From: Escherichia phage SUT_E1520
Strand: one strand, 5' to 3'
Sequence record: OQ885479
DNA length: 64,000 bases
Shown here: positions 2,910-41,388 of the stretch, one piece after another
Numbering within the stretch: position 1 is the first letter of the stretch
How the letters are laid out: each line of letters opens with the position of its first letter
Made by a program: the position numbers and the translations under genes
Notes under the pieces: model-generated
The model's input: the letters and a program-made list of their open reading frames with translations, nothing else
The model's database searches: none
What the model was told of the DNA's origin: nothing

Positions 2910-3185
2910 ATGCAAAATCGTGTTATAGCAACTGGTATTGAAAGTGCAATCTGTAAATCCTGGGAAGGCTGGGAAGGTGAGATTGAATGGCTTTATTTCT
3001 ACGATGTAGAACTTCTGCCGGAAGTTAAAGCTAAATGTATTGAAGCTGGCATGGCTCCAGATGCAAAAGCTGATATTGATATTTCAATGTCTGAACTTAA
3101 AGGTCGTGTAATTACTGTTAGTGATGAGGGCGAAGAAGTTTTCGAACTTCCATTCTCCTTAACTGTCGCTCCTAAGTTCGACTAA
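2910..3185 (+). CDS. hypothetical protein
   Basis: ORF track; promoter and SD upstream. Confidence 0.55.
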   Translation: MQNRVIATGIESAICKSWEGWEGEIEWLYFYDVELLPEVKAKCIEAGMAPDAKADIDISMSELKGRVITVSDEGEEVFELPFSLTVAPKFD

Positions 3186-3221
3186 CTAATACAGCACTGA
3201 GCAAGTTCTTTAAAATTTGAC

Positions 3222-3250
3222 TTGCTCAGTGCCATAAAACTTGATATAAT
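3222..3250 (+). promoter_or_regulatory. T5-type early promoter upstream of the tRNA block; overlaps a 12-bp inverted repeat (3192-3232)
   Basis: TTGCTC-N17-TATAAT; GCACTGAGCAAG / CTTGCTCAGTGC hairpin overlaps the -35. Confidence 0.5.
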
Positions 3251-3313
3251 AGTTATCTAATTTGGAAACATATCTAAAAGTGTTTAAACTAGTATTTGAA
3301 TACTTTTAAATAT

Positions 3314-3404
3314 GTTGGATTAGTATCGTAGAGGTAGCGAAGCAGACTGTAAATCTGCCGACTCGGAAGGGTCTCGGGTGGTTCGACTCCATCATCCAAC
3401 ACCA
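3314..3404 (+). tRNA. tRNA-Tyr (GUA), class II
   Basis: Acceptor GTTGGAT/ATCCAAC, anticodon loop CTGTAAA, long variable arm, T-loop GGTTCGACTCC, CCA. Confidence 0.7.
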
Positions 3405-3411
3405 AATTTAA

Positions 3412-3488
3412 GTCCTGTTAGACAAACTGGTAAAGTCACTACCCTTTCAAGGTAGGATTTGCGGGTTCGATCCCCGCACAGGACGCCA
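3412..3488 (+). tRNA. tRNA-Glu (UUC)
   Basis: Acceptor GTCCTGT/ACAGGAC, anticodon arm CTACC-CTTTCAA-GGTAG, T-arm GCGGGTTCGATCCCCGC, CCA. Confidence 0.75.
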
Positions 3489-3496
3489 ATTCCTGC

Positions 3497-37283: not shown

Positions 37284-38018
37284 ATGAATAAAGCTATTAT
37301 GAATATTTCCCGTAATTTCCCGCATATTTCCCGCGTCATGATTTGGGATTTAGACGGCACTATCATTAATTCTTTCCATCGTGTAGCGCCTTGCTTTGAT
37401 AGTGAGGGCAATTTAGATTTAAATAAGTATAAAAATGAAGCCTGCAAACATCATTTAATAATGCAAGATACTTTATTGCCATTGGTTGAATATATGCGCC
37501 AATGTATGAATGATGCAAATACTTTAAACATTATTTGCACCGCTCGACTAATGAGCAAGTCGGACTATTATTATTTGCGTAAACAAGGGTTGCGCGGTCG
37601 TGGTGATAGTAATATCCGTGTATTTTCCCGCGATACACTACACAAATATTTTGAAGCTGATAAAGTTAGCGAGATATACCACAGCAAAGACGCCATTTAT
37701 AAATCGTATTATTTTGAATTATTTAAACAATTATATCCAAACGCTGACTTTACAATGATTGACGATCATAAAGGCGTGCTATCAGCGGCGGCATCATACG
37801 GATTTAAAACGCTGGACGCGCAAGCCATTAACGATATTCTATCAATCGGCGTTGCATTGATAGGTGAAACCTTTATCGATGAATCTCTCGATGATGATAA
37901 TGATTATCAGTTCCTAGCTGATCGTTTGAAATTATGTTGGGAAAGTATGACCGAGGAAGAACGCGCAGAATATAGTTGCAGCCCGCAACAATATATTGAG
38001 AAATTAAAAGTTGCGTAA
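37284..38018 (+). CDS. dmp: 5-prime-deoxyribonucleotidase, HAD-superfamily phosphatase
   Basis: 244 aa; HAD motif I DLDGT near the N-terminus and a later DD motif. Confidence 0.7.
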   Translation: MNKAIMNISRNFPHISRVMIWDLDGTIINSFHRVAPCFDSEGNLDLNKYKNEACKHHLIMQDTLLPLVEYMRQCMNDANTLNIICTARLMSKSDYYYLRKQGLRGRGDSNIRVFSRDTLHKYFEADKVSEIYHSKDAIYKSYYFELFKQLYPNADFTMIDDHKGVLSAAASYGFKTLDAQAINDILSIGVALIGETFIDESLDDDNDYQFLADRLKLCWESMTEEERAEYSCSPQQYIEKLKVA

Positions 38019-38032
38019 TAATTAAAGTTGAA

Positions 38033-38069
38033 ATAGTCACGGTGTGTAATGATAACATGCCGTGACTAT
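38033..38069 (+). terminator. stem-loop after dmp (terminator-like)
   Basis: ATAGTCACGG...CCGTGACTAT hairpin. Confidence 0.45.
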
Positions 38070-38082
38070 TAGCTTGCTAAGT

Positions 38083-38100
38083 ACCGGGCGGTAATGAGAC
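38083..38100 (+). promoter_or_regulatory. third copy (one mismatch) of the Fur-box-like palindrome
   Basis: AATGAGACTCATTCTCAT between dmp and the small-membrane-protein operon. Confidence 0.45.
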
Positions 38101-38169
38101 TCATTCTCATCTGGGGAGCCACTGGACACACCTCCATGTGTAATCTTATGAAATTTGACAAAAGTCGAA

Positions 38170-38415
38170 TTAGCGCATAGAAGGGTCATCAAACCTGTGT
38201 TCTGGTCTGAACTCCCGGAATCTCTTCCGCGACGCCCGAGATCCATCCGACCACTCTCGCTCAAACTCCGCACGTTTCTCGTCAAACTTCCGCTCCCTTT
38301 CCGCAATCTCCCGCGTCACTCCCGCAATATATTCCCGATGCTTATTGATTGCCGCAGTCGTCCCGAAAACTCCCGCGAGTATCCCGATAATAAAAGCAAT
38401 TATAATACTAAACAT
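38170..38415 (-). CDS. small membrane protein with a charged C-terminal tail (81 aa)
   Basis: ORF track; last gene of a translationally coupled minus-strand operon. Confidence 0.45.
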   Translation of the reverse strand: MFSIIIAFIIGILAGVFGTTAAINKHREYIAGVTREIAERERKFDEKRAEFEREWSDGSRASRKRFREFRPEHRFDDPSMR

Positions 38416-38602
38416 CTAATTCCCTCTCAATTTGCAGAATACGGGTGCTATCACAACGTTGCAGTAGTACTAGCTTTTCTAGAATAACTTGTTGTTGTTT
38501 TACCTGGGCTTCTAGAGTTTTTAGGCGGAGATACACGATACGAGAGACAATGAGGATTACCCAGACTAATATTACCATTAGTGTAATTGCCACTTCCATC
38601 AT
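38408..38602 (-). CDS. small single-pass membrane protein, paralog family member (64 aa)
   Basis: ORF track; TM helix and C-terminal RILQIERELD-like motif. Confidence 0.45.
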   Translation of the reverse strand: MMEVAITLMVILVWVILIVSRIVYLRLKTLEAQVKQQQVILEKLVLLQRCDSTRILQIERELDV

Positions 38603-38706
38603 TTATGTTTCTCCGATAGTAAGGTTTCGATTCTAGCTAAGTGATTATCTAAGATACATTGCCCAATAATCACAATCCCCAGTAGTGCAATAATTACCCA
38701 TTCCAT
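38599..38706 (-). CDS. small single-pass membrane protein, paralog family member (35 aa)
   Basis: MEWVIIALLG...RIETLLSEKHK; TAATG and ATGATG overlaps with neighbours; below the track cutoff. Confidence 0.35.
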   Translation of the reverse strand: MEWVIIALLGIVIIGQCILDNHLARIETLLSEKHK

Positions 38707-38861
38707 TATTTACGCTCCTCTAATAAAGTTTCAATTCTAGATAATCTATTGCTCAACTGCATTAATTTAATCTCTGTTTGGGTTACAGAGGTATCTATTA
38801 CACGTAAGCCTGCAAAGAGAAGTATCAATAAGACGAATATGCCAATAATTACCCATTCCAT
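38706..38861 (-). CDS. small single-pass membrane protein, paralog family member (51 aa)
   Basis: Track ORF 38706..38891; start moved to the ATG at 38861 (MEWVIIGIF...RIETLLEERK). Confidence 0.45.
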   Translation of the reverse strand: MEWVIIGIFVLLILLFAGLRVIDTSVTQTEIKLMQLSNRLSRIETLLEERK

Positions 38862-38998
38862 TATAGCCACCCCGCCATAGCTGCTAACCAAAAACCTACG
38901 AAGATTAAGAATAATACAAAACCAAATCCGTAAATATTAACCCACGCTTCGTACACTTCTCCACGTCTGTTCTTTCTTTTATTTGACATATCTTTCAT
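38861..38998 (-). CDS. small membrane protein (45 aa), first gene of the operon downstream of llp
   Basis: SD AGGAGC upstream; basic N-terminus then TM helix; below the track cutoff. Confidence 0.4.
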   Translation of the reverse strand: MKDMSNKRKNRRGEVYEAWVNIYGFGFVLFLIFVGFWLAAMAGWL

Positions 38999-39152
38999 GC
39001 TCCTATGAGTATGGTATTTGGAATACCCTAGCAATTGCAGTGATTAGTATAAATATTCTTATTATACCTTCCCTAGTGTCTTGTGTGGCATCCTGGACTA
39101 ATTCTGCGCTAGGATTATCTTAAGTGGTGATAGTTACTAAGGTCGTTTTTAC

Positions 39153-39386
39153 TTAGAAAACTCCCTCACATGTATTCCCCTCAGTAAAGTAGCTTACGGG
39201 AGCCCAAAAAGACCCATAGGCCATAATTGGTGACACCAAAAACATATCCCCTTTCCTATCAAAAACATTAGCCTTATATTTCACATGATCTTGTACATAG
39301 TAGGCCTCACATTTAATATCTTTAGGACCAAAAGTAGAGCAAGCCGAAAGAAGTACCACTGCCATAGCTAAAAATAATTTTTTCAT
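39153..39386 (-). CDS. llp: Llp lipoprotein (FhuA-blocking superinfection-exclusion lipoprotein)
   Basis: 77 aa; signal peptide with lipobox LLSAC; divergent from and adjacent to the pb5 gene as in T5. Confidence 0.75.
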   Translation of the reverse strand: MKKLFLAMAVVLLSACSTFGPKDIKCEAYYVQDHVKYKANVFDRKGDMFLVSPIMAYGSFWAPVSYFTEGNTCEGVF

Positions 39387-39465
39387 TTACATTCTCCTAT
39401 GTTTAATTTATAATACTATTATACAGAATTATAGCAATATAGGCAATTAAATTTTTGGAGAACTT

Positions 39466-41388
39466 ATGAGTTTTTTCGCTGGCAAGCTAAATAATAAATC
39501 TATACTCTCTCTGCGCAGGGGTAGTGGCGGAGATACTAATCAACATATTAATCCTGACTCTCAGACCATATTCCATTCAGATATGCCCCATGTTATCATA
39601 ACAGAAACTCACTCCACAGGGTTAAGGCTAGATCAAGGTGCTGGAGATTACTACTGGTCTGATATGCCTAGCAGAATTACCCAGTTACATAATAATGATC
39701 CTAATAGAGTTGTGCTGACGGAGATTGAGTTCTCAGATGGCTCTAGACATATGTTATCCGGTATGTCTATGGGGGTAGGTGCTAAGGCGTACGGAATTAT
39801 AAATCCACAGGTCATGTCCCAGGGTGGCTTAAAAACACAAATAACAGCTAGTGCTGATCTATCCCTTGATGTAGGTTATTTTAACAGTGGAACTAGTGGA
39901 ACTATTCCCCAGAAGCTTAGAGATGGTACTGGATGTCAGCATATGTTTGGCGCCTTTAGTGGGCGTAGAGGATTTGCATCTAGTGCAATGTACTTAGGTG
40001 GTGCCGCTCTTTATAAGTCTGCCTGGGATGGTTCAGGATATATTGTGCCCAGCTCAGGATCCATAACTATCCCTAGCGACTACGTTAGGCATCCCGGAGC
40101 TAGAAACTTTGGATTTAACGCCATATATGTTCGTGGTAGATCTTGCAATAGAGTTCTTTACGGTATGGAAGGGCCTAACTATACCACTGCTGGAGCTGTG
40201 CACGGTGCTTCTAGTTCTGGGGCTCTTAACTTTATAGATAACCCTAGCAATCCCTCGGCTCCTAAGTACTCTGTAGGTTTCGCACGTGCTGATCCCACTA
40301 ACTATGCTTATTGGGAAAGTATGGGTGATCCGAATGATGCTGCTAATGGGCCTATAGGTATATATAGTGAGCACCTCGGTATTTATCCATCTAAAATTAC
40401 TTGGTATGTTACCAATCTAGTATACAATGGCTCAGGATACAGTATTGATAGTGGGCTATTTACTGGCAATGATATTAAACTTAGCCCAAGAGAGTTTATT
40501 ATTAAAGGGGTTAATGTTAATAATACGTCATGGAAGTTTATTAACTTTGTTGAGAAAAACTTTAATGTAGGTAGCAGAGCTGATTTTCGTGATGTTGGGT
40601 GTAACTTGAGTATGGGTGCCCCCTCTACTGGAGTTTCTGGCATAGCAACATTTGGGCTGCCCACTACGGAAAGCAATAACGCACCAAGTATTAAAGGTGG
40701 TAACGTTGGTGGTTTAAATACTAATGTAGTTAGTATTTATAACTTTTTACCTTCAGCATCTTGGTATGTTTCTAGTAATCCTCCAAAAATAGGCAGCAAT
40801 TATGGAGATGTTTGGAGTGAGAATCTTTTACCTTTAAGACTTCTAGGTGGTAGCGGAAGTACTGTACTATCTGGTAACATAGTATTTCAGGGTAATGGTT
40901 CCGTGCATGTTGGCACCGTGGGACTAGATCTTAATAGTAGTAGAAATGGCGCAATTGTATGTACTATGGAGTTCCTGGATGACACATGGTTGTCTGCAGG
41001 AGGTATTGGCTGCTTTAATCCTACGGAAATGCTATCTAAAGGCGCCGAATATGGAGATAGTAGGTTCAGAATGGGTGGCAATACTATCGATAAAAAACTT
41101 CACCAAATATTGTCCCTACCTGCAGGAGAATATGTACCATTTTTTACTATTAAAGGTACTGTAGTAAATGCTTGTAAATTACAGGCTGCTGGGTATACTC
41201 CAACTCCGTACTGGGTATCTGGGTTGCCGGGATCAGTAGGTCAAACGGGTTACTATACTCTAACATATTATATGAGAAATGATGGAAATAATAATATCTC
41301 TATTTGGTTAGAATCCTCTATGAGCAATATAATTGGCATGAAAGCATGCTTACCAAATATTAAACTTATAATTCAACGCCTTACCTAA
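39466..41388 (+). CDS. oad: receptor-binding protein pb5 (Oad)
   Basis: 640 aa, matching T5 pb5 length; position next to llp. Confidence 0.75.

What the first reader, a model, noticed from the sequence alone, without database searches (positions are those of the whole stretch)
38170..38998. Five translationally coupled small membrane-protein genes downstream of llp, three of them paralogs
Minus-strand genes of 45, 51, 35, 64 and 81 aa overlap by TAATG or ATGA junctions. Three share an N-terminal TM helix (MEWVII...) and a C-terminal RIETLLEE / RILQIERELD motif, indicating tandem duplication. Their position directly after the Llp superinfection-exclusion lipoprotein suggests further envelope-acting functions such as exclusion, receptor masking or lysis timing.
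Basis: seen in the sequence. Interest (0 to 1): 0.6.

Follow-up and report, generated by a model that had tools for sequence, protein, structure and literature searches.

The report
T5 small membrane-protein gene cassette
Five tiny, overlapping genes for single-helix inner-membrane proteins sit behind the receptor-blocking gene llp of a T5-like phage; they are real, conserved in over 400 related phages and listed since 1994, but nobody knows what they do.

Summary
The five minus-strand genes are real. In 26 related loci each shows purifying selection in its own frame (pN/pS 0.14-0.45) and has its own ribosome-binding site. Neighbouring genes overlap by 1, 1, 4 and 8 nt. The opposite-strand ORF 38155-38487 is a shadow of orf4 (pN/pS about 1).

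- The first gene is 42 aa (start 38989), not 45.
- Only the 51-aa and 35-aa proteins are demonstrable paralogs.
- The last junction is an 8-nt overlap.

The cluster is T5 orf1-orf4 (Decker 1994; T5.159-162) plus an extra 51-aa copy of orf2, which occurs in about 8% of T5-like phages. The window matches annotated phage SUT_E420 exactly.

The cluster occurs behind both FhuA-type and BtuB-type llp, and in phages with no llp. Erwinia, Pantoea, Klebsiella and Providencia relatives carry comparable cassettes at the same position. All four families are found only in T5-like phages, and no paper I could search assigns a function.

Predicted architecture is one membrane helix plus a cytoplasm-facing helix or basic tail. 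My best guess (about 0.3) is an inner-membrane complex giving receptor-independent superinfection exclusion or envelope protection. A role as an Llp helper or receptor mask is disfavoured. The feature is ordinary and already annotated, with an open functional question.

The parts
39153..39386 (-). llp, the FhuA-type receptor-blocking lipoprotein (77 aa). It is the upstream gene of the probable common transcript.
   Evidence: ORF. phrog_1119 'Cor superinfection exclusion protein', E 5.5e-19. Annotated as lytic conversion lipoprotein in OQ990039 and T5. A sigma-70-like promoter lies at 39446-39418 on the minus strand, matching the T5-annotated llp promoter.
38990..39152 (-). 163-nt llp-orf1 spacer. 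It contains the AGGAG ribosome-binding site at 39000-39004 and the non-conserved upstream ATG at 38998. No terminator-like site or strong promoter-like site was found in it.
   Evidence: Alignment of 25 loci: the last ~60 nt are shared by both llp types, and the upstream part is specific to the llp type. Scan. In other phages this spacer carries HNH endonuclease or acidic-ORF insertions.
38861..38989 (-). orf1 (42 aa; T5.159 homolog). It has a basic N-terminal tail (5 K/R, predicted cytoplasmic) followed by a C-terminal membrane helix.
   Evidence: phrog_8596, E 3e-30. pN/pS 0.16. Found in 433 phage records. Homologs occur in Erwinia KEY and Pantoea AAS21. Topology estimate.
38706..38861 (-). 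orf2' (51 aa), a tandem paralog of orf2. It has an acidic N-terminus, a membrane helix and a heptad-patterned C-terminal helix. T5 lacks it.
   Evidence: phrog_6369, E 1e-16. Paralogy p < 5e-4. It is a 155-nt indel relative to T5. Found in only 35 phage records. pN/pS 0.28, n = 3.
38599..38706 (-). orf2 (35 aa; T5.160 homolog): a membrane helix plus a 16-residue amphipathic tail (LARIETLLSEKHK).
   Evidence: phrog_6369, E 2e-25. pN/pS 0.14. The 35-aa type is found in 190 records. It always co-occurs with orf3 in the sampled loci.
38408..38602 (-). orf3 (64 aa, or 63 aa from ATG 38599; T5.161 homolog): a membrane helix plus a ~40-residue heptad-patterned helix with an invariant C-terminus QIERELDV.
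   Evidence: phrog_5851, E 2e-30. pN/pS is 0.34 overall and 0.19 in the soluble part. Found in 193 records. The AlphaFold model is one helix, residues 2-63, pLDDT 88.5.
38170..38415 (-). orf4 (81 aa; T5.162 homolog): a membrane helix, a juxtamembrane KHR, a highly charged E/R/K helix, and a variable tail from residue 67.
   Evidence: phrog_6447 'membrane protein', E 2e-47. pN/pS 0.27 for codons 1-66. Found in 443 records. The AlphaFold model is a helix, residues 2-69, pLDDT 74. There are at least 5 alternative C-tails.
38032..38070 (-). Hairpin with a 14-bp outer stem and a short inner stem, followed by a T-rich tail. It lies between the convergent orf4 and dmp genes and is the probable transcription terminator of the cassette.
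   Evidence: RNA fold of 38019-38175, z-score -3.3. Coordinates. An inverted repeat is annotated at the equivalent T5 position in X75922.
38155..38487 (+). Opposite-strand 110-aa ORF. It is not a gene but the codon-aligned antisense shadow of orf4.
   Evidence: pN/pS 0.96-1.03 in this frame, against 0.27-0.39 for orf4. No PHROG hit. It stays open because stops in this frame arise only from TTA, CTA or TCA codons in orf4 (and inference).

Best explanation
What is shown. This is a conserved accessory operon of a T5-like phage. It has no terminator-like site upstream, no strong promoter-like site of its own, and ends at a hairpin, so it is probably read from the llp promoter. It encodes five translationally coupled micro-proteins (42, 51, 35, 63/64 and 81 aa) from four families, one of them duplicated.

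What is predicted. Each protein is a single-pass inner-membrane protein with almost nothing in the periplasm. orf1 has a basic cytoplasmic N-tail and a C-terminal membrane helix. The other four start with an acidic or uncharged N-terminus directly at the membrane helix, followed by K/R and a cytoplasmic amphipathic, heptad-patterned or charged helix (N-out, C-in).

What is inferred. The tight coupling, the heptad patterns and the co-variation of the orf2 tail type with orf3 presence suggest that the proteins assemble into a hetero-oligomeric inner-membrane complex.

What I commit to, untested. The complex acts on the inner membrane of the infected cell as a receptor-independent second layer of superinfection exclusion or envelope protection. 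For example, it could prevent the tape-measure/DNA channel of a second T5-like phage from opening the inner membrane. That would complement, without requiring, the outer-membrane receptor block by Llp. I put the anatomy at about 0.9 and this specific function at about 0.3; the confidence value given for this explanation (0.3) refers to the function.
For: Coding and expression:
- Purifying selection in the annotated frames only.
- A Shine-Dalgarno motif before every start, and conserved 1-8-nt overlaps.
- Every gene is annotated in T5 and SUT_E420.
- The region is transcribed 20 min after infection in the five-gene phage Bas33, and is silent when second-step DNA transfer is blocked, so it is not pre-early (PMC13250531 Dataset S1).

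Architecture:
- Hydrophobic segments and charge distribution.
- AlphaFold models of orf3 and orf4 as single long helices.

Complex formation:
- 20 of 20 loci with the 35-aa orf2 type carry orf3, against 1 of 8 with the 34-aa type.
- The soluble parts are more constrained than the membrane helices (pN/pS 0.19-0.20 against 0.45-0.61).

Independence from receptor and from Llp:
- The same cassette follows FhuA-type and BtuB-type llp.
- It is present without an llp lipoprotein.
- llp alone suffices for receptor block (PMC4728585).

Accessory, fast-turnover locus next to the host-recognition module:
- orf3 is absent from more than half of the phages and the 51-aa gene occurs in about 8%.
- Some orf3 and orf4 copies are truncated.
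- Different tiny membrane proteins occupy the same position in Erwinia, Pantoea, Klebsiella and Providencia phages.

Precedent, from established knowledge rather than tests here: small inner-membrane exclusion proteins such as T4 Imm and HK97 gp15 block DNA entry.
Against: - No functional data exist. No paper in the searchable library assigns a role.
- There is no sequence similarity to any known exclusion protein.
- The topology is only predicted. For the 35-aa and 51-aa proteins the charge bias is weak.
- Co-transcription with llp is inferred only from the absence of a terminator-like site or a strong promoter-like site.
- RNA-seq counts across the cluster are uneven: orf1 and orf2 about 1 TPM, orf4 13-22 TPM. 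This is probably a counting artefact for genes shorter than a read, but it does not prove one transcript.
- The orf2/orf3 co-variation is not corrected for phylogeny.
- Near-universal conservation of orf1 and orf4 in a strictly lytic phage would also fit a role in the phage's own cycle.
Confidence: 0.3

Rival explanations
1. Host-takeover modulators. The micro-proteins bind host inner-membrane machines through helix-helix contacts and tune them for the phage's own cycle. In particular, orf4 may mimic LapA/YhcB-type proteins (a membrane helix, a basic stretch, then a coiled coil) and perturb the LapB-FtsH-LpxC control of LPS synthesis. Other possible targets are transport, TonB-ExbBD, division or protease complexes.
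For: - 26 of 32 orf4 family members give sub-threshold hits to Pfam LapA_dom PF06305 (best E 1.2e-4), and one hits ZapG-like.
- orf1 and orf4 are nearly universal in Markadamsvirinae (433 and 443 records), which suits a role in the phage's own cycle.
- The predicted cytoplasmic helices are under stronger constraint than the membrane helices.
- All receptors known for these phages are TonB-dependent transporters (PMC8594841), so a target common to them is conceivable.
Against: - The LapA_dom scores (about 20 bits) are below the 28-bit gathering threshold, and membrane-helix plus coiled-coil composition inflates such scores.
- A profile search of 1.84 billion representative proteins found no bacterial relative.
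- No PDB relative was found.
- The variable gene content of the cassette looks more like an arms-race locus than a housekeeping takeover function.
Confidence: 0.2
2. Lysis-timing or membrane-permeabilising proteins (holin, antiholin or pinholin-like, or viroporin-like) that adjust the time of lysis or the membrane potential.
For: - They are small single-helix proteins with charged C-terminal tails.
- The 51-aa protein has a weak hit to a holin PHROG (phrog_689, E 0.54).
- The orf3 profile's best PDB hit is HIV Vpu (E 0.29, not significant).
Against: - T5-like phages have a separate cassette with holin, endolysin and spanins (PMC4342426).
- This cluster is linked to the early gene llp, not to an endolysin.
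- The similarity scores are at noise level.
Confidence: 0.12
3. Counter-defence. The proteins neutralise membrane-associated abortive-infection or exclusion systems of the host or of resident prophages and plasmids.
For: - Gene content turns over quickly, with presence/absence polymorphism, duplication and recombination breakpoints (the orf4 tail variants and HNH insertions), as is typical of arms-race loci.
- T5-like phages are frequent targets of abortive-infection systems (PMC8594841).
Against: - No similarity to any catalogued defence-related family (PADLOC).
- No published link.
- orf1 and orf4 are nearly invariant across hosts as different as Escherichia, Salmonella, Yersinia and Klebsiella.
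Confidence: 0.1
4. Llp helpers. The proteins assist export, lipidation or delivery of Llp, or mask the receptor themselves.
For: - The cluster lies directly downstream of llp and is probably on the same transcript.
- One study saw a much weaker effect of cloned llp than another, for unexplained reasons (PMC4728585).
Against: - The same cassette follows two unrelated llp types.
- It is present where no llp lipoprotein exists.
- Cloned llp alone blocks infection.
- The predicted periplasmic exposure is 0-4 residues.
Confidence: 0.04
5. Not genes. The ORFs are chance or annotation artefacts, and the real gene is the opposite-strand ORF 38155-38487.
For: - The 110-aa antisense ORF stays largely open (64-147 codons without a stop) in almost all relatives.
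- No proteomic detection of the small proteins could be found.
Against: - pN/pS in the antisense frame is 0.96-1.03, against 0.27-0.39 in the sense frame.
- The antisense openness is explained by orf4 codon usage (few TTA, CTA or TCA codons).
- There is no PHROG for the antisense product.
- All five sense ORFs have Shine-Dalgarno sites and conserved overlaps, and four match phage protein families.
Confidence: 0.02

Closest known systems
Phage T5 orf1-orf4 downstream of llp (X75922, Decker et al. 1994; T5.159-T5.162 in NC_005859)
   Same: The genes are homologous and in the same order, strand and position, between llp and the dmp/terminal-repeat boundary. The overlaps are the same. NC_005859 already notes 'contains single transmembrane domain' for each.
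   Different: This window has five genes, not four: an extra 51-aa paralog of orf2 lies between orf1 and orf2. DNA identity to T5 is about 89%. The function is unknown in T5 as well.
Small inner-membrane superinfection-exclusion proteins (T4 Imm; HK97 gp15)
   Same: Both are phage-encoded, very small, inner-membrane proteins. This is the functional class I consider most likely, as a partner to an outer-membrane-level exclusion factor (Llp here, Sp in T4). The comparison rests on established knowledge, not on a test made here.
   Different: No sequence similarity was detected. Here there are four families in one coupled operon rather than a single protein. No exclusion phenotype has been shown.
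LapA/YciS domain (Pfam PF06305) and YhcB/ZapG-like bacterial proteins
   Same: orf4 shares the pattern of a membrane helix, a basic juxtamembrane stretch and a charged helix. 26 of 32 family members give consistent weak hits.
   Different: All scores are below the curated cut-off (about 20 against 28 bits). No bacterial homolog appeared in an exhaustive profile search. orf4 has one membrane helix. LapA has two (from my own recall, not checked here).
Holins/antiholins and Rz/Rz1-type spanins
   Same: They are small phage membrane proteins, there is a lipoprotein gene (llp) next door, and coiled-coil segments are present.
   Different: The cluster is not linked to an endolysin. T5-like phages have a separate lysis cassette (PMC4342426). 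The proteins are too short and, as predicted, wrongly oriented to span the periplasm. Llp has a demonstrated different function (PMC9586334).
Positional analogues in other Demerecviridae (Erwinia KEY, Pantoea AAS21, Klebsiella Sugarland-like K7_rec26, Providencia PSTCR5)
   Same: A run of two to five tiny single-helix protein genes lies divergent from the receptor-binding protein gene and convergent with dmp. orf1 is recognisably conserved in KEY and AAS21.
   Different: The other members are unrelated in sequence or only marginally similar (Klebsiella 74-aa protein against the orf3 profile: probability 34%). Most of these phages lack an llp lipoprotein.

Membership tests
T5 orf1-orf4 cassette (PHROGs 8596, 6369, 5851, 6447) | Each protein matches the corresponding family profile over its full length | tested here: met
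   E-values are 3e-30 (orf1), 1e-16 and 2e-25 (51-aa and 35-aa, both phrog_6369), 2e-30 (orf3) and 2e-47 (orf4).
T5 orf1-orf4 cassette (PHROGs 8596, 6369, 5851, 6447) | Same order, strand and position: after llp, before the dmp/terminal-repeat boundary, with overlapping stop/start codons | tested here: met
   Annotated regions of SUT_E420, T5 and X75922, and 26 IMG/VR loci. The only difference is the inserted 51-aa paralog.
Holin | Profile similarity to a known holin family | tested here: not met
   The best hit is phrog_689 at E 0.54 for the 51-aa protein. Pfam and NCBIfam give nothing.
Holin | Genetic linkage to an endolysin or spanin (a lysis cassette) | tested here: not met
   The neighbours are llp, the pb5 receptor-binding protein gene and dmp. 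T5-like phages carry a separate lysis cassette (PMC4342426).
Holin | Lethal membrane permeabilisation at a programmed late time | not testable with these tools
   This needs induction and membrane-potential assays.
Two-component spanin (Rz/Rz1-like) | i-spanin: N-in membrane helix plus a periplasmic coiled-coil long enough to reach the outer membrane (typically over 100 aa) | tested here: not met
   The proteins are 35-81 aa. The N-termini lack positive charge and K/R follow the membrane helix, which predicts cytoplasmic C-termini.
Two-component spanin (Rz/Rz1-like) | A partner outer-membrane lipoprotein that is always co-inherited | tested here: not met
   Llp is a receptor blocker (PMC9586334). 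It is absent from several phages that keep the cassette.
Inner-membrane superinfection-exclusion proteins (T4 Imm, HK97 gp15) | Sequence or profile similarity | tested here: not met
   No Pfam, PHROG or NCBIfam hit to any exclusion family for the five small proteins.
Inner-membrane superinfection-exclusion proteins (T4 Imm, HK97 gp15) | Blocks DNA entry of a superinfecting phage after adsorption | not testable with these tools
   This needs plating-efficiency and DNA-injection assays with the cassette expressed without llp.
LapA domain (Pfam PF06305) | Score at or above the curated gathering threshold (28 bits) | tested here: inconclusive
   orf4 scores 20.2 bits, E 5.6e-4. 26 of 32 family members give sub-threshold hits (best 1.2e-4). 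The exhaustive profile search found no bacterial relatives.
Cor/Llp receptor-blocking lipoproteins | Signal peptide with a lipobox cysteine | tested here: not met
   None of the five has a basic n-region followed by [LVI][ASTVI][GAS]C. The only candidate, IIGQC in orf2, has Q at position -1. This is read directly from the sequences.
   Met for 51-aa against 35-aa (p < 5e-4). Not met for 64-aa against 51-aa (p 0.13) or 64-aa against 35-aa (p 0.27). Profile-profile probability is 26%.

The most novel reading that the evidence does not exclude
The RBP/terminal-repeat junction of Demerecviridae is a family-wide, fast-evolving 'micro-protein cassette', anchored by orf1. Its products assemble into an inner-membrane complex that provides a previously unrecognised, receptor-independent layer of superinfection exclusion. 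Alternatively, through an orf4 LapA/YhcB-like helix, the complex rewires the LapB-FtsH-LpxC envelope checkpoint. Either way it would be a new class of phage-encoded membrane micro-protein effectors in the model phage T5.
Probability: 0.2. Interest if true: 0.6.

Novelty: already known. Interest (0 to 1): 0.3.

Why it matters
These genes have sat in the model phage T5 for 30 years without a function. They are present in essentially every T5-like phage now being developed for biocontrol and therapy.

If they form a second, receptor-independent exclusion or envelope-modifying system, that would affect how phage cocktails of T5-like viruses interfere with each other. It would also add a tractable example of viral membrane micro-proteins.

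The comparative picture assembled here gives concrete, cheap experiments. It consists of a core of orf1 plus orf4, an accessory orf2/orf3 pair, an occasional duplicate, independence from Llp, and analogous cassettes in other genera. As a genome feature, however, it is ordinary and already annotated.

Tried and rejected
1. Opposite-strand ORF 38155-38487 as the real gene: rejected on pN/pS of about 1 and no family hit.
2. The 45-aa start at 38998: rejected because the ATG is not conserved and AGGAG lies only 1 nt from it.
3. The 64-aa protein as a third paralog: not supported by shuffle tests or hhalign.
4. Remote homology:
   - Two word-indexed searches with profiles (orf1, orf3) and one with a single sequence (orf4) found only T5-like phage proteins.
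   - One exhaustive HMM search of 1.84 billion representative proteins (orf4) gave the same result.
   - Pfam, NCBIfam, PADLOC and PDB gave nothing above threshold.
5. Structured RNA in the region: no Rfam match.
6. The 'tail assembly protein' or 'tail fiber protein' labels attached to orf2 and orf3 in some records and in UniRef: treated as unsupported label propagation. The PHROGs are 'unknown function' and the proteins are 35-64-aa membrane helices.
7. Fold search of the AlphaFold models: not run, because single long helices give meaningless matches.
8. Literature: six searches and nine papers read found no functional statement. Decker et al. 1994 itself is not held.
9. Proteomic evidence from the Bas33 data set could not be assessed, because the supplementary workbook was cut when stored.
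10. Vibrio and Aeromonas relatives have a different arrangement next to dmp and were not pursued.
Full report
**Identity of the region.** Window 38000-39500 is 100% identical to Escherichia phages SUT_E420 and SUT_E520 (Tequintavirus) and about 89% identical to phage T5. The local map is:
- pb5/oad receptor-binding protein gene, 39466-41388 (+)
- llp, 39153-39386 (-)
- five small minus-strand genes
- a hairpin
- the convergent pre-early gene dmp, 37284-38018 (+)

In T5 the equivalent genes were deposited in 1994 as orf1-orf4 (X75922). SUT_E420 annotates all five genes as hypothetical proteins. The feature is therefore already catalogued. What is missing is a function.

**Checking the observation.** The five ORFs are present.
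- *Junctions.* They are TAATG, TAATG, ATGA and an 8-nt overlap (ATGTTTAG). Each start is preceded by a Shine-Dalgarno-like motif inside the previous gene (AGGAG, GGGGTGG, GAGGAG, GGAG, GAGAGGGA).
- *Selection.* I collected 26 related loci from IMG/VR and added T5. The annotated frame has the lowest pN/pS of all six frames for every gene: orf1 0.16, orf2 0.14, orf3 0.34-0.45, orf4 0.27 over the conserved first 66 codons, and 0.28 for the 51-aa gene.
Its pN/pS is 0.96-1.03 and it has no family match. It stays largely open in relatives because stops in that frame can only come from TTA, CTA or TCA codons in orf4 (inference from the genetic code).
- *Corrections.* The ATG at 38998 is replaced by ACG, ATT or ATA in 8 of the 25 aligned loci, so orf1 starts at 38989 and is 42 aa. 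orf3 may start at 38599, giving 63 aa.

**Paralogy.** The 51-aa and 35-aa proteins both match phrog_6369. They align with a score of 61, against 25.7 +/- 4.9 for shuffles that keep the membrane-helix and tail compositions separate (p < 5e-4). At the DNA level the 51-aa gene is a clean 155-nt indel relative to T5, flanked by the repeated start sequence TAATGGAATGGGTAATTATTG. That is the signature of a tandem duplication, or of its loss.

The 64-aa protein belongs to a different PHROG. It is not significantly similar to either paralog (p 0.13-0.27; hhalign probability 26%). It shares the architecture, not demonstrable ancestry.

**Distribution.** tblastn against 50,697 phage records found:

| Gene | Records |
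|---|---|
| orf4 | 443 |
| orf1 | 433 |
| orf3 | 193 |
| 35-aa type of orf2 | 190 |
| 51-aa gene | 35 |

All hits are T5-like phages. In the sampled loci a 34-aa orf2 variant (...RIERKLREYK) replaces the 35-aa type wherever orf3 is absent, with one exception. The counts are 20 of 20 loci with orf3 for the 35-aa type against 1 of 8 for the 34-aa type, not corrected for phylogeny. A few phages carry truncated orf3 or orf4, or a shortened orf4 membrane helix. orf4 has at least five alternative C-terminal tails starting at residue 67, often next to HNH endonuclease insertions. So orf1, orf2 and orf4 residues 1-66 form the core, and orf3 and the 51-aa gene are accessory.

**Relation to Llp.** The cassette follows both the 77-aa FhuA-type Llp and the unrelated 88-aa BtuB-type lipoprotein. 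The module boundary lies inside the llp-orf1 spacer. The 51-aa gene occurs with both types.
- Phage Shivani keeps orf1-orf4 but has no lipoprotein gene between the receptor-binding protein gene and the cassette.
- Erwinia phage KEY and Pantoea phage AAS21 have an orf1 homolog plus other tiny membrane proteins directly beside the receptor-binding protein gene, with no llp.
- A Sugarland-like Klebsiella phage has two genes there. One is a 74-aa protein with an acidic N-terminus, a membrane helix and a coiled coil, marginally similar to orf3 (probability 34%). The other is a 151-aa protein with a membrane helix, a charged helix and a Ser-rich tail.
- Providencia phage PSTCR5 has five overlapping genes of 29-46 aa, each a single membrane helix.
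- Cloned llp alone confers receptor block (PMC4728585).

The cassette is therefore linked to this genome position, not to Llp function or to receptor identity.

**Protein architecture.** Every product has one hydrophobic segment with a favourable insertion energy.
- orf1 has five K/R before a membrane helix that ends the protein.
- The other four begin ME, ME, MME or MF directly at the helix, with K/R after it. This predicts N-out/C-in with the soluble parts in the cytoplasm. The prediction is weaker for the 35-aa and 51-aa proteins.
- The tails of the 35-, 51- and 64-aa proteins carry heptad patterns (3/4, 6/8 and 8/11 a/d positions hydrophobic).
- AlphaFold models orf3 as one helix, residues 2-63 (pLDDT 88.5), and orf4 as one helix, residues 2-69, with a disordered tail (pLDDT 74).
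- The soluble parts of orf3 and orf4 are more constrained than their membrane helices.

**Expression.**
- Consensus scans find the divergent llp and oad promoters, and no terminator-like site between llp and orf1.
- A hairpin with a 14-bp outer stem and a T-rich tail lies at 38032-38070, after orf4.
- In published RNA-seq of the five-gene phage Bas33 at 20 min, the llp homolog (219 and 127 TPM), the 51-aa gene (162 and 137) and orf3 (462 and 408) are transcribed. All are silent when second-step DNA transfer is blocked. The 108-129-nt genes have about 1 TPM, most likely a counting artefact (PMC13250531).
- Translation has not been shown directly.

**Homology and literature.** All four families are confined to T5-like phages:
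- orf4: 83 clusters, and only five representatives among 1.84 billion proteins.
- orf1: 33 clusters, including Pantoea and Erwinia phages.
- orf3: 289 clusters.

Pfam, NCBIfam, PADLOC, PDB and Rfam give nothing above threshold. The one consistent weak signal is orf4 against LapA_dom PF06305: 26 of 32 members, about 20 bits against a 28-bit cut-off. No paper I could search assigns a function. T5-like phages have a separate lysis cassette with holin, endolysin and spanins (PMC4342426).

**Interpretation.**
- *Shown:* real, conserved, coupled genes for single-helix micro-proteins, independent of llp type.
- *Predicted:* inner-membrane location with cytoplasmic tails.
- *Inferred:* a hetero-oligomeric complex.
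- *Committed but untested (about 0.3):* receptor-independent superinfection exclusion or inner-membrane protection, acting alongside Llp but without needing it.
- *Rivals:* modulation of host inner-membrane machinery, including a LapA/YhcB-like role for orf4 (0.2); lysis timing (0.12); counter-defence (0.1); Llp helper or receptor mask (0.04); not genes (0.02).

**Verdict.** The finding is correct in outline and wrong in some details. It describes an already annotated, uncharacterised cassette. Interest is modest (0.3). Its value lies in a long-open but easily testable question in a model phage.

Noticed in passing
L034:4822-5370 (Providencia phage PSTCR5); L038:2064-2502 (Pantoea phage AAS21); L033:4827-5070 (Erwinia phage KEY); L032:4353-5036 (Klebsiella phage K7_rec26): Distant Demerecviridae carry their own runs of two to five tiny single-helix protein genes at the same position, between the receptor-binding protein gene and dmp. 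Only orf1 is recognisably shared. This looks like a family-wide, fast-evolving micro-protein cassette.
   Followed up: partly
window 38170-38217 (orf4 codons 67-81), compared with L013, L016, L024, L027: orf4 has at least five unrelated C-terminal tails, all starting after ...RKRFR (residue 66): EFRPEHRFDDPSMR, MSESGDKPVDRRSS, KI[ND]GKS, AKVSDEE, ADSVSSPK. The KI[ND]GKS tail is followed by an HNH endonuclease gene in Shivani. This suggests recombination breakpoints inside the gene's 3' end.
   Followed up: partly
L021:3434-3781; L031:1783-2385 and 2997-3494; L030:2235-2774: HNH/AP2 homing endonuclease genes are inserted in the llp-orf1 spacer or just after orf4 in several T5-like phages. These two borders of the cassette appear to be insertion hot spots.
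   Followed up: no
L027:2699-3013; L031:1602-1928; fragments in L021 and L023: A very acidic 104-108-aa ORF (MQ[DE][ED][ED]K.FQEP...) lies between the receptor-binding protein or llp gene and orf1 in some phages, overlapping the orf1 start in L027. In Shivani it occupies the place where llp would be. It is not a lipoprotein, and its function is unknown.
   Followed up: no
window 38155-38487 (+): A 110-aa antisense ORF stays open (64-147 codons) across almost all relatives, purely because orf4 rarely uses TTA, CTA or TCA codons. It is a good example of a conserved-looking shadow ORF.
   Followed up: yes
window 38860-38887 (-): A sigma-70-like match (TTAGCA-16-TATAAT, 10 of 12) lies at the orf1/51-aa junction. 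Its -10 element is created by the junction sequence of the five-gene variant (T5 has ATTTAA there). It could give an internal transcript that skips the 51-aa start codon. This was not tested.
   Followed up: no
database records hit (e.g. phages OSYSP, SP15, GEC_vB_N3; UniRef clusters): orf2 and orf3 homologs are labelled 'tail assembly protein' or 'tail fiber protein' in many records, and the dmp homolog 'polynucleotide kinase' in some. These names have no support from family profiles and look like propagated mis-annotation.
   Followed up: partly
L029:4046-4213; L022:4001-4108; L015:3817-3984: Natural variants with a shortened orf4 membrane helix (L029), a truncated orf4 (35 aa, L022) or a truncated orf3 (55 aa, L015) exist in otherwise complete phage genomes. 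This hints that these genes are dispensable for plaque formation.
   Followed up: no
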